Assembly (NCBI GenBank): GCA_040954595.2
Contig: CM082585.2
Span: 7,279,808-7,343,807 of the forward strand
Length of the DNA stretch: 64,000 bases
Source: Balanoglossus misakiensis
Taxonomy: Eukaryota > Animalia > Hemichordata
Direction: 5' to 3'
A program made the position numbers and the translations under genes. Of this stretch, positions 13,488 through 40,372 are shown one piece after another (within the stretch, counting starts at the first letter, position 1; every line of letters begins with the position of its first letter). The notes under the pieces were generated by a model, which was not told where the DNA came from, did no database searches, and saw nothing but the letters and a program-made list of their open reading frames with translations.

Positions 13488-13740
13488 GTGAGCGACGAGT
13501 TAGAGAGAGTTCATTGGTGAGTGTGGAGGGTGTTGCACAGAGCCAGTGTATAGAATGTGGCGAATTTATGGTATGCTGTGTTGTGTTGTGGCGCGTCATG
13601 TTGGAAGGGTGAGTTGATAATGTGACATGTGCAAGAGTGCAGTGAATGGCCAAGTTATGAAAGTAGTAGAGGCGGCTGATGTGGTTCAGTGGCTTGCATC
13701 AATAGTGTTGTGACAAGACCTGGTAAGACTACTACAGTAA

Positions 13741-13950
13741 CTGTAAAACAGGTTATTTTCGCGACAGGAAATTTTCGCGATCTCAAAAGAGGCAACTGTT
13801 ACGTGAGGATAATTTTTGGCGGTCTTGTATTTTACTAACTGCATCGTTATCTCCGAAAAACATTTGACAAGACTTTTTATTTTCATGTTTTTTTGCCTCT
13901 CGCGTATTTCGCGAAAATTGTATTGCTCTCGAAAATAACCCGTTTTACAG
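13741..13950. mobile_element. About 210 bp non-autonomous DNA transposon (MITE), TA-type
   Basis: Terminal inverted repeats ctgtaaaacaggttattttcg / cgaaaataacccgttttacag (21 bp, 1 mismatch); TA on the right flank. Confidence 0.75.
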
Positions 13951-14232
13951 TATGTCTTATATGTCTGTCATGAAGTCCAAACTTGCACATGAAGAACGGC
14001 AGATCACCAGTAGAAGAAACAGGTAGGAATGTAGCAGAGCTTTACAGTCATGTGAAACAATTACTGTATTATTACTCATGGTTAATCTGAAAACTAGACT
14101 GTTAGTTACTCAGGTCATATGTTGGGAGTTTCCCTAGCATTGGTGTTATGTACATGGTGGTAGTCCTCAACAGGCTTGATACACAAATACACAACATGTT
14201 TTAGGGTGTATAATATATACAGATATAATTTC

Positions 14233-36900: not shown

Positions 36901-39900
36901 GTTTTGATCTTATCCTCGGCAGAATCGTTAATAAATCAATAATGAGACGGGCATTGAAATGGAAGTGTTCTGATAGCCATCGCAAATTGTAGCAAAGTAA
37001 TGGAGTTTTACCCATCATTATGCATTGACTTCGGTTATCTCATCGTGCTGGCAACTGCTCGCTGTTGTTTTGACTTCAGTCAGGGAACCTCAATTTCTGG
37101 GGCACAGGGTGGCGATTTTTTTTTTTGGTTTCAAAACTTGGTTGAGTGACGTTTTATGCTGGCTGTGTCTCCCTGTAAATTTTAATATCGTTTTTTACTA
37201 GATCGTATAAATGGAGTGGAATTTTTATAATTTTCAGCTGTAGATCATTTTCAAGGCCTGGCTCATGTGTGTCATGTTCAGATTGACAGATGAAAATTGT
37301 GACAGTTTGGAAATGTCCTTCACTTTTTGTGTTTGCTGGTCTGCAGTCTCTACATGATATAAGGACTTTTGCTCTTAGCTGAGAAGTGAGAACCCTGATA
37401 GAGATGTTTAAATTCTAGATTCTTAGTTTTCTGGATTTTGAGAGAAAAAAAACGCTTTTAAAGTCTTTTTGACATGTATGTGCATATGAGCTAATGCTGT
37501 GACTCAGCGGATGTAGAACTGAGACCATGCTGTTTGTCTACACTGAAACGGAACCACTCTTTGACACAAAACGAAATCTCTAGATCAGACCCAGCGATAG
37601 ACCAACCAGCAGATAATTCAGCCGCAGTGTTTTGTGGAAAGTGATAAAAGTACACAATGGGTGTGAAAAAAGGTTAAGATACAGCACATTCATTTTAAAC
37701 CTCTGCCCCAGGGGGTATGGATGGGCTATGCATCTGTCTCGATTCTGCTATCTGCGTATGTGTGTCACTTTAACTGATAGCTGTTTTGTATTCACACTGA
37801 AGTGTGGGCAACCAAAGGAATGGGACGGCCCGTAATTCATACGGTAACGCACACTAAGTGGTAATTTTTGTCAGTTGTCTGAATAATGTAATGCTCAGAG
37901 ATTGTTGTTTGAATAATGTAAAACAGATCAGTACCTGTCTGTGTGGGAGTGGTGAATATGTTCGAAAGATGCCGGTCTGAAAAAAAGGGGTGGGGGGAAT
38001 CTGCCATAGAAATACAGGCAAATTTATGCACATGGGCAGAGATTGTTACTAATGCCATTTGTGCTAGAGGTGTGGGGAAATGTGCAGGCTGTGGGGATTG
38101 TGAACTTTTGAGTTGAAGAATGGAGGGGAGAAATTGCCCCCAGGGTAGGGGTGATGCCCTAGGGGTGGGGAATCCAGTGGTGGGGGAAATGGGATTATGC
38201 CTCAAGAGTATTAGGTAATGCCTTCAGGGGGTGTGGGGAAACTCTGGTGATAATGTCTGTATAATTTTACGAAGTCGTGGAAAATTAGGTTTCCAGCTGA
38301 GTGGCCAGGACCGATTGTATTTCGTCTCGTCTGGTCCTTTCAGTGATGGATAGTGACTGGTAATAATTTGGAGCATCTTCACATAATTCCTTGTCAATTC
38401 AGACATGCAATCTGGTTACAGTGTAAAACGCGGATAACACACTGTGTGTTCTGGTGGGAATCAGGATGGATGCATGCCATCTGATCCGGGGCTGGAATTA
38501 AGACTCCTGCTAGAATACATCCCTGCTATTCCAGAAATGTCCGCATATTGAAAAAGGACCGATATGTTGTCAATATTACGCATTAGTTCTGCAGGTGCCT
38601 GTACTTTTTTAATCTGGCCTTAGATTGTGTTGTTCACATCACGCATCAACAAACACTTGGAGACTTTACTCACTGCATTGGTGTTTTGCAAATCCACCAG
38701 GGCCCTGTGAAAAGATGTGCAGGTGGTGGTACGTTCGGTGAAAGATCACTCTCCCACAGGAGAATTATATCAATTTGGCTGAGAAATATCGATTGAAGTA
38801 TCAACCAAACATAAAAAGTAAATTTAATGCGGTGTAATTGCGTGTTGATGTTGAAAATCAAAAACATTTCCCTGTGATTGGGCTCAAAACATGTTGTGAT
38901 GATGTCTTTCCTATGTAAAAGAAAGGCACTTCCGTTTATAATCAAATTAAAGTTTAAAGCATCTGTCTTTGTAGATTCAGATACAAACGCTGTGGCAAAA
39001 ATGGTTAGCAAAAGTGAGAAGGGTGCAAATAACATCTACAAGATTAACTTTGCAGTTTGCCATGAACTCATATTTAATCTGGCCATAGAGGGCGTTTTTG
39101 CCAAAACAAGAGCAGCAACAAAAATTAATTTTGATGCAATATATATTTGTATATTTTCTCATTTGAGTCCCAAACCCTTGGGTCAGCGAATGGTGTTCAC
39201 AGTGGACCGCCAAGCCCTTAAAAGTTAAACTACCCAAGTCACATGACCTCTAAATTTATGGCGTAATGGCCTCCCACAAAGATGAATTGTAGACCTTTCA
39301 AAACTCAAATTATACGGTTATGTCCCTGCTTGAAATTCATACCGTAGCATCAAAAGTGCTCTCTCATAAATCCCCGGAGCCTGCACGATTTCTGTATGAC
39401 CTCCTCCGAGTCTCCTGGGACAGCCAAAACCCTATGCACTCGCGCATCTCATCATTCTAAAAGTCATTTCTAAATCATATCATATATTAAAAATATGAAG
39501 AGTTGAAATTTCAATTATAAGAAACAATAGTGTCATAATTATACTGTATCACTGCTTATAACATTTTTTGATTCAATATTTCATTTTTTAGTAATTAAAA
39601 GGACTGTTCACAGAGAAACTTGCAATCAGAGCTGACTATTATGATACAGTCAATTTTAATCGTCACAGACAATGTTCTGATAGCCCTCCATAGGTGCGAG
39701 TAATAGTTCTGAGATATCACGGTAAATTGAGCACATGATGTATTATAGGGTTATTGTTTGTGAGATGAAGTTTCCATGATGAACGCCGGTAACATTATTG
39801 AACTCTTTGAAGTGAACTTCGGTGGGTGTGGTAATATTGGGGTCTTTTCCCCTGCGTAATAATCAGACGTAATTTCATGTGCTTCGTGTAGTGATTGGAC

Positions 39901-40372
39901 TGCTGAACTATGGAGCTGTGGATAGGGGTGGATGGGGCGAGTAGTAATTGAGGGGCAATGACCGAATGGGAGAATGCAACTTACCCGCAAACTCGACTAT
40001 GATTCCAAACGGCATGACCAGTAGGGAGACCATGAGATCGGCGACGGCCAGCGACATCAGGAAATAGTTTGTGATGCTCTGTAGTTTCTTGTCGGTCATG
40101 ATGGCCAGGCACACCAGCACGTTCCCCATCACTGTGCACAGGATGATGGCGATGAGGAAGAGCGCGGGCCAATTGTTTTCCGATTCGGGCGCGCCCCCCT
40201 CCTCGTTGCTGTTATTGCCGTAGGTTGAATTTGCACTGGCGGACATTAGATCCATGTTTATTGTCACGGTGAAGACTCCATAGGCTTTGGTTAGCTCTCT
40301 TTCCATGAAGGCCAGCGAAGTGGCATTGTCGGTGGAAGCCATGTTGGTGCTGGTCTCGGCCATCACCTCCAT
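27959..40372 (-). CDS. HTR2: 5-HT2-type serotonin receptor (gene B), 493 aa, exons 40372-39985 and 29052-27959
   Basis: Exon 1: first ATG at 40372, NWPAL, TVMGNVLVCLA, KKLQSITNYFLMSLAVADLMVSLLVMPFGI, donor GCG G|gtaagt. Exon 2: ttttgcag|GA CAC TGG, DVLCCTASIMHLCTISVDRY, YGSIVAFFIP, ISNEQRATKVLG, CWAPFFFSN, WLGYISSMINPILYTVFNKRFR. All are diagnostic of the 5-HT2 subfamily. Lengths 388+1094 = 1482 nt, in frame; the intron is 10.9 kb. Confidence 0.94.
29290..29530 (-). mobile_element. Possible degraded fragment of a Penelope-like retroelement RT C-terminal region
   Basis: Frameshifted minus-strand pieces (R)DAFNY, AQVHGSF and YFKISTN..FVYNNLFPKLISRGFKSADFNRFFSK..LCHKY resemble, from memory, the RDxFNF..YG.Y.SQL.RY..KL..RG(F/Y)....RFF pattern of such elements. 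Not verified by search. Confidence 0.3.
35811..36158. mobile_element. 348 bp foldback (palindromic) MITE with TTAA target duplication
   Basis: ttaa|agggacaaagtctctct.. and ..agagagactttgtccct|ttaa. The two arms of about 165 bp are reverse complements over their whole length, with a loop near 35978-35990. Confidence 0.9.

What the first reader, a model, noticed from the sequence alone, without database searches (positions are those of the whole stretch)
13488..40372. 5-HT2 receptor genes nested antisense in the same PSMD1 intron that hosts vertebrate HTR2B
Seen: PSMD1 breaks off at a phase-2 donor inside the Arg codon of ..LGFLLFR, and two 5-HT2-type genes follow on the opposite strand. Established: human HTR2B is nested antisense in a large PSMD1 intron on 2q37. 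From memory, that intron also interrupts ..LGFILFR|TPEQ; this needs checking. The window looks invertebrate (divergent receptors, an intronless TRIM-NHL gene, TTAA MITEs). Inference: the nesting predates vertebrates, and the HTR2B locus marks the ancestral position of the whole 5-HT2 family. A proteasome-serotonin receptor linkage kept over that span suggests a cis-regulatory constraint.
Basis: partly seen in the sequence, partly recalled or inferred. Interest (0 to 1): 0.85.

Follow-up and report, generated by a model that had tools for sequence, protein, structure and literature searches.

The report
Serotonin receptors inside proteasome gene intron
In an acorn-worm genome, two serotonin 5-HT2 receptor genes lie backwards right after the point where the essential proteasome gene PSMD1 breaks off, likely inside the same giant intron that holds human HTR2B; the same pairing in sea urchin and bivalves suggests it is as old as bilaterian animals, though a pre-vertebrate link is probably already published.

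Summary
The window is from an acorn worm close to Ptychodera flava. PSMD1 (17 exons, 7226-13487, +) stops at a phase-2 donor in the codon matching human Arg628. No later exon occurs in the remaining 50.5 kb; its other introns are 115-795 bp. Two intact 5-HT2 genes follow on the minus strand. Both fall in the 5-HT2 clade (100/99), and gene B is not a specific HTR2B orthologue (p-AU 1e-7).

PSMD1 and a 5-HT2 gene share a contig or have near-consecutive accessions in 9 of 15 species compared, including sea urchin and bivalves. They are unlinked in three octopuses. Broken bivalve and tortoise gene models diverge exactly at this junction, and a cnidarian-like contig has the same donor. So the intron is likely pre-bilaterian and the nesting likely bilaterian.

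Not shown: the downstream exons, an RNA junction, the human host-intron codon (recalled only) and any cis-regulatory constraint. Structural trapping would suffice. Moutkine et al. 2019 (recalled, not readable here) reviews the Psmd1-Htr2b association, and this scan noted the same layout earlier in an arthropod.

The parts
7226..13487 (+). PSMD1/Rpn2 host gene, coding exons 1-17 (642 codons + 2 nt); the 3' half lies beyond the window
   Evidence: all GT-AG, open frame; last exon 99% identical to P. flava PSMD1
13488..64000 (+). Host intron (inferred), phase 2 in the Arg codon matching human R628; at least 50.5 kb, acceptor not in the window
   Evidence: donor AG|GTGAGC; no downstream PSMD1 exon; position from PDB alignment
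14670..16384 (-). 5-HT2 gene A, coding exon 2 (TM3-TM7, third intracellular loop of about 365 residues); stop codon 1.18 kb from the PSMD1 donor
   Evidence: orthologue P. flava XP_070537972
17077..17455 (-). 5-HT2 gene A, coding exon 1 (N-terminus to first extracellular loop; phase-1 intron follows)
27959..29052 (-). 5-HT2 gene B, coding exon 2 (TM3-TM7)
   Evidence: 86% identical to P. flava XP_070537973
39985..40372 (-). 5-HT2 gene B, coding exon 1 (phase-1 intron at the same place as in gene A)
40373..64000 (-). Stretch upstream of gene B with no recognised gene; likely 5' UTR introns and regulatory DNA of gene B, all inside the host intron
   Evidence: no PSMD1 or receptor exon; the ORFs were judged non-coding by eye, not scanned; no Rfam match; regulatory role is inference

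Best explanation
Two intact 5-HT2 serotonin receptor genes lie antisense right after the last visible PSMD1 exon, likely nested in one giant PSMD1 intron that likely is the same intron that holds vertebrate HTR2B, an arrangement probably inherited from the last common ancestor of protostomes and deuterostomes. The intron likely existed first (a cnidarian-like PSMD1 has the same donor), and a 5-HT2 gene came to lie in it on the bilaterian stem. PSMD1 would be transcribed across more than 50 kb and spliced LFR to TPEQ, while the receptors would use their own promoters on the other strand and likely signal through Gq like other 5-HT2 receptors. Acorn worms carry two copies (fast-evolving gene A, conserved gene B), likely from a tandem duplication older than the Saccoglossus-Ptychodera split. 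The link likely persists mainly through structural trapping: an inversion or translocation that separates a nested gene from an essential single-copy host breaks the host, so escape needs copy-out followed by loss. That likely happened in octopus and, after genome doubling, for vertebrate HTR2A and HTR2C.
For: Shown in the window. P. flava has a full-length PSMD1 reading LFR-TPEQ with accessions in the window's order: PSMD1 XP_070537970/1, A XP_070537972, B XP_070537973-7, all on one 39.76 Mb record. Saccoglossus has a PSMD1 model with both halves and both receptors on one 241,141-bp scaffold. Sea urchin: XP_011669144/5 vs XP_011669147. Pacific oyster: XP_011430856 vs 857; Mercenaria: XP_045200167/8 vs 163. 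Same record length also in Glandiceps, C. angulata, Tubulanus and Tachypleus, for 9 of 15 species in all. Of 246 PSMD1 proteins scanned, 5 break at this junction: 4 bivalve models from 3 species, and a tortoise model reading LGFILF-S as expected of a phase-2 AG split. L077, closest to anthozoan-like PSMD1, has the same AG|GT donor. Serotonin GPCRs are reported as bilaterian-specific (PMC10244343, passages). Mouse Htr2b coordinates lie inside Psmd1 (PMC3420870, table passage). Trees.
Against: The acceptor and 3' exons were not seen in this genome. Shared record lengths and neighbouring accessions show linkage, not nesting or intron identity, and same-chromosome matches can be chance (Tachypleus has duplicated genomes, recalled). 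6 of 15 species show no link: three Octopus, Lottia, Bacillus rossius and Oppia. Lottia and Oppia are scaffold-level, the Bacillus receptor is the other arthropod paralogue, and only one receptor per species was checked. The human host-intron codon is recalled, not retrieved. L077 ends 87 bases after the donor and its taxon is by similarity only. A+B as one clade is neither recovered nor rejected (p-AU 0.17). Trapping versus selection was not tested.
Confidence: 0.8

Rival explanations
1. The nesting is ancient as above, but it is kept by selection on shared cis-regulation: receptor enhancers spread through the PSMD1 intron (a genomic regulatory block with PSMD1 as bystander), or the two transcription units regulate each other.
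For: The host intron is over 60 times longer than the next longest, and 23.6 kb with no recognised gene lie upstream of gene B. Very long bystander introns are a predicted mark of such blocks (PMC3514665, passages). The link is retained in several phyla. It is not exclusive of trapping.
Against: No conserved non-coding element or expression data were obtainable. The link is lost in octopus. The junction is intron-free in L010, L017, L020, L065 and L070. A nested gene's own promoter region enlarges the intron in any case.
Confidence: 0.3
2. The genes are old neighbours but not nested here: PSMD1 is split or misassembled in this genome, or the receptors entered the intron independently in different lineages.
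For: The downstream exons are not in the window, and no read-level or RNA check of the junction was obtained.
Against: The donor is canonical and the 642-codon frame intact. P. flava has the same gene order by accession, and a 241-kb Saccoglossus scaffold holds a two-halved PSMD1 model and both receptors. Bivalve and tortoise models fail at the same codon. Repeated independent insertion into one intron out of more than twenty is unparsimonious.
Confidence: 0.07
3. Gene A is not a serotonin receptor but a D2-like dopamine receptor, as RefSeq names its orthologues.
For: RefSeq names XP_070537972 and XP_077867365 'D(2) dopamine receptor A-like'. The branch is long and the third loop very long.
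Against: The top 29 PDB hits are 5-HT2 (75-92 bits vs 65 or less for dopamine receptors). It sits inside the 5-HT2 clade at 100/99, grouping with the D2-like outgroup row is rejected (p-AU 0.006), and it has the NEQRA motif and the same intron as gene B. The same D2 label is given to oyster and nemertean proteins within the clade. Only four outgroup rows were available, and the ligand is untested.
Confidence: 0.05

Closest known systems
Vertebrate PSMD1/HTR2B host-nested pair (human 2q37, mouse chr 1)
   Same: Same host gene and a 5-HT2 receptor within it (mouse coordinates, PMC3420870). Antisense orientation and host intron 16 at c.1883 / codon 628 phase 2 are recalled for human; the window's donor maps to that codon.
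   Different: Two receptors rather than one. Gene B is not a specific 2B orthologue, and both lie outside the vertebrate 2A/2B/2C clade. Each has one coding intron.
Moutkine, Collins, Bechade, Maroteaux 2019, Pharmacol Res 140:14 (PMID 30223085), 'Evolutionary considerations on 5-HT2 receptors'
   Same: Recalled: it reviews the genomic association of Psmd1/RPN2 with Htr2b, including pre-vertebrate genomes, and proposes selective pressure on the pair. Only its reference entry and one citing passage (PMC12405928) were seen.
   Different: I could not read it, so whether it lists hemichordates, bivalves, the intron phase, the cnidarian intron, the tandem duplicate or the octopus loss is unknown.
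Ptychodera flava and Saccoglossus kowalevskii RefSeq loci (XP_070537970-977; XP_006819466, XP_077867364/5)
   Same: Same three genes on one record; in P. flava the accessions follow the window's order.
   Different: The window is from a different, related species (gene B exon 2 86%, gene A 54% over its aligned length). RefSeq names gene A a D2 dopamine receptor.
Conserved ancestral microsyntenic pairs and genomic regulatory blocks (Irimia et al. 2012, PMC3514665)
   Same: An ancient linkage between a housekeeping gene with a very long intron and an unrelated gene (passages).
   Different: The partner is nested and is a GPCR, not a developmental transcription regulator. PSMD1 and HTR2 are not named in the main text, and the supplements were unreadable.

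Membership tests
5-HT2 receptor family | Best matches are 5-HT2A/B/C, with a gap to other aminergic receptors | tested here: met
   Top 29 PDB hits for gene A (TM3-5 part) and gene B (exon 2) are 5-HT2
5-HT2 receptor family | Inside the 5-HT2 clade against non-5-HT2 aminergic outgroups | tested here: met
   45-row ingroup at 100/99 against 4 outgroup rows, 3 of them labelled by PDB search as 5-HT1A- or D2-like; thin outgroup, long branches flagged
5-HT2 receptor family | TM3 Asp, DRY, NEQ(R/K)A before TM6, W-x-P-F-F-x-x-N in TM6 (motif list recalled) | tested here: met
   Present in both window genes
5-HT2 receptor family | Serotonin activation and Gq coupling | not testable with these tools
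   Needs a cell assay
HTR2B orthologue in the strict sense | Groups with vertebrate 2B to the exclusion of 2A and 2C | tested here: not met
   Gene B + vertebrate 2B rejected, p-AU 1.2e-7 (2B row verified); gene A also lies outside the vertebrate clade
PSMD1/HTR2B-type nested pair | Receptor antisense to PSMD1 and downstream of a PSMD1 donor | tested here: met
PSMD1/HTR2B-type nested pair | PSMD1 exons on both sides of the receptor in the same DNA | tested here: inconclusive
   3' exons are beyond the window; relatives have whole PSMD1 models on the same record
PSMD1/HTR2B-type nested pair | Host intron at the same codon and phase as the human host intron | tested here: inconclusive
   Window codon equals human R628; a tortoise model breaks there; human exon map recalled only, and paper searches did not give it
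Genomic regulatory block | Very long intron in a bystander gene | tested here: met
   At least 50.5 kb vs 115-795 bp
Genomic regulatory block | Conserved non-coding elements or enhancers in that intron acting on the target | not testable with these tools
   No orthologous intron DNA could be fetched (no genome held; 0 of 80 metagenome loci carried a receptor)

The most novel reading that the evidence does not exclude
This PSMD1 intron, already present before cnidarians split off, is the birthplace of the whole 5-HT2 family on the bilaterian stem. The nesting has survived in deuterostomes, spiralians and chelicerates because the intron carries conserved enhancers coupling serotonin signalling to the proteasome gene, which would make it one of the oldest nested gene structures in animals, with octopus as a natural escape experiment.
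Probability: 0.25. Interest if true: 0.7.

Novelty: new member of a known kind. Interest (0 to 1): 0.42.

Why it matters
It gives a synteny marker for 5-HT2 orthology across bilaterians, where trees are poorly resolved and annotations often say 'D2 dopamine receptor'. It identifies the HTR2B site as the likely ancestral locus from which HTR2A and HTR2C escaped. It also supplies a dated nested-gene pair with known losses, on which trapping and regulatory constraint can be tested. The core idea is probably published; the additions here are the intron's likely pre-bilaterian age, the bivalve junction evidence, the octopus loss and the acorn-worm second copy.

Tried and rejected
No whole genome is held for this window, so exon 18 could not be located. 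Sequencing-run search: no RNA holder listed, and no read-level check of the junction was obtained. The metagenome scan gave 80 PSMD1 loci, mostly transcripts, fungi and protists by appearance; 0 of 80 carried a receptor match to 5 queries. Of 8 loci examined further, L077 has the same donor, L010, L017, L020, L065 and L070 read through the junction, L021 has an intron 8 bases upstream, and L063 (about 56% identity) has a possible donor in another phase. Rfam: 0 matches in the window. Ten paper searches found no held paper stating the invertebrate nesting or the human exon map. The 2019 review is not held; of 8 papers citing it, 5 were searched by term and none mentions the nesting. Simakov 2015: no hit in the main text or 2 supplements. 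Irimia 2012: supplements unreadable, and they may list this pair. Three human-genetics or cell papers gave no intron position. Rejected: gene A as a D2 receptor; gene B as a strict HTR2B orthologue. Rows left out of trees: near-duplicate oyster and moth proteins and proteins under 280 aa; 47 and 25 hand-picked database rows were used, some labelled only by tree position.

Full report
Source and host gene. The window is from an enteropneust hemichordate near Ptychodera flava: gene B exon 2 is 86% identical to a P. flava 5-HT2 protein, 70% to Saccoglossus and 69% to Glandiceps, and the last PSMD1 exon is 99% identical to P. flava. Seventeen GT-AG exons from 7226 to 13487 give an open PSMD1/Rpn2 frame of 642 codons plus two bases, ending at AG|GTGAGC, phase 2 inside the Arg after LGFLLF. 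The preceding Phe aligns with human F627. Three full-length hemichordate PSMD1 queries find no exon for residues 645-995 anywhere in the window. If the gene is whole, this intron exceeds 50,513 bp, while the other 16 are 115-795 bp. No genome is held, so the acceptor was not seen.

The receptors. Gene A (17455-17077, 16384-14670, minus; 697 aa) ends 1.18 kb from the donor and has a third intracellular loop of about 365 residues. Gene B (40372-39985, 29052-27959, minus) is 493 aa. Both have one phase-1 coding intron before the Trp of the first extracellular loop. For each, the top 29 PDB hits are human 5-HT2A/B/C. In a 49-row tree both lie in a 45-row 5-HT2 clade at 100/99 against four outgroup rows, three of which were labelled 5-HT1A- or D2-like by PDB search. 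Deep branches within the clade are unresolved. Gene B with vertebrate 2B is rejected (p-AU 1.2e-7), gene A with the D2-like row is rejected (0.006), and A+B as one clade is not rejected (0.17). They are therefore counterparts of the whole vertebrate trio rather than HTR2B orthologues. Gene A has orthologues in P. flava and Saccoglossus, both named 'D(2) dopamine receptor A-like' in RefSeq, so the two copies predate that split.

Linkage elsewhere. I compared record lengths and accession numbers for every species in which my calls returned both a PSMD1 and a 5-HT2 protein; 9 of 15 are linked. P. flava: PSMD1 XP_070537970/1, A 972, B 973-977, the window's order. Saccoglossus: a PSMD1 model with both halves and both receptors on a 241,141-bp scaffold. 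S. purpuratus: XP_011669144/5 and 147. M. gigas: XP_011430856 and 857. Mercenaria: XP_045200167/8 and 163. Same record only: Glandiceps, C. angulata, Tubulanus, Tachypleus. Unlinked: Octopus vulgaris, O. bimaculoides and O. sinensis (chromosome-scale; the octopus receptor sits in the same mollusc clade as the linked bivalve ones), Lottia and Oppia (scaffold-level), and Bacillus rossius (the other arthropod paralogue). These data show linkage, not intron identity, and one receptor per species was checked.

Which intron. Of 246 PSMD1 proteins scanned, 9 were flagged at this junction: 4 are simple substitutions and 5 break there. The five are models from Saccostrea cucullata, M. gigas (two, same locus) and Ruditapes, which end or diverge right after LGFLLFR, and a Gopherus model reading LGFILF-S, as expected when a phase-2 AG is spliced to a wrong exon. 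Gene prediction failing at one junction is what a giant intron causes, so the bivalve receptor likely sits there too. For human I recall intron 16 (c.1883), which is codon 628 phase 2 and matches, but no call retrieved it. A mouse table places Htr2b (87,930,441-87,942,088) inside Psmd1 (87,895,789-87,970,466) (PMC3420870, passage). Metagenome locus L077, closest to anthozoan-like PSMD1 proteins, has the same AG|GT donor, though the contig ends 87 bases later. Serotonin GPCRs are reported as bilaterian-specific (PMC10244343, passages), so the intron likely predates its passenger. Five of the eight loci examined read through the junction and two have differently placed donors, so the intron is dispensable in some lineages.

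Mechanism. Shown: the gene anatomy, receptor family, intron size floor and linkage in other phyla. Inferred: splicing across the receptors, a single origin on the bilaterian stem, a tandem origin of A and B, and Gq signalling (family knowledge; PMC12405928, passage). For persistence I favour structural trapping: a rearrangement that separates a nested gene from an essential single-copy host disrupts the host, so only copy-out plus loss frees it, as likely in octopus and in vertebrate HTR2A/2C after genome doubling (the latter recalled).

Novelty. The vertebrate nesting is established. Moutkine et al. 2019 (PMID 30223085; reference entry seen, paper not held) reviews, as I recall, the Psmd1-Htr2b association including pre-vertebrates. 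Ten library searches found no held paper stating it, but the library lacks most subscription journals. Verdict: real and likely bilaterian-old, a new member of a known arrangement, interest 0.42.

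Noticed in passing
window 16309-16518 and 16546-16753: A tandem duplication of about 237 bp (93-98% identical) copies gene A's exon-2 acceptor and first 22 codons. The upstream copy is a decoy acceptor that would run into a stop. It is either a real small duplication or an allele assembled twice.
   Followed up: partly
window 14670-17455 (-): Gene A is a fast-evolving acorn-worm 5-HT2 paralogue with a third intracellular loop of about 365 residues. 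RefSeq names its orthologues D2 dopamine receptors, as it does several oyster, nemertean, crinoid and tunicate 5-HT2 proteins.
   Followed up: yes
window 35806-36163: An inverted repeat with 138-nt arms (91% complementary), TTAA at both ends and AGGG...CCCT termini; a MITE-like insertion in gene B's intron.
   Followed up: partly
window 29-1933 (-): A single 634-codon ORF with RING, B-box, coiled-coil and NHL-like regions by eye (TRIM-NHL type), divergent from PSMD1; not scanned against Pfam.
   Followed up: no
L077 (whole 2339-bp contig): This cnidarian-like PSMD1 fragment shares four more intron positions with the window (before MVRH, GEA, YAQ and V/TM) and has two the window lacks (in GRH-DVY and at LLHVA-VSDV).
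   Followed up: partly
L070 4627-11835: An intron-rich animal-like PSMD1 locus, closest to spiralian proteins, that reads straight through the host junction: a likely independent loss of the intron and hence of the nesting.
   Followed up: partly
proteins P0021, P0023, P0370 vs P0367, P0368: Octopus 5-HT2 and PSMD1 lie on different chromosome-scale records in three species, a likely escape of the receptor in this lineage.
   Followed up: partly
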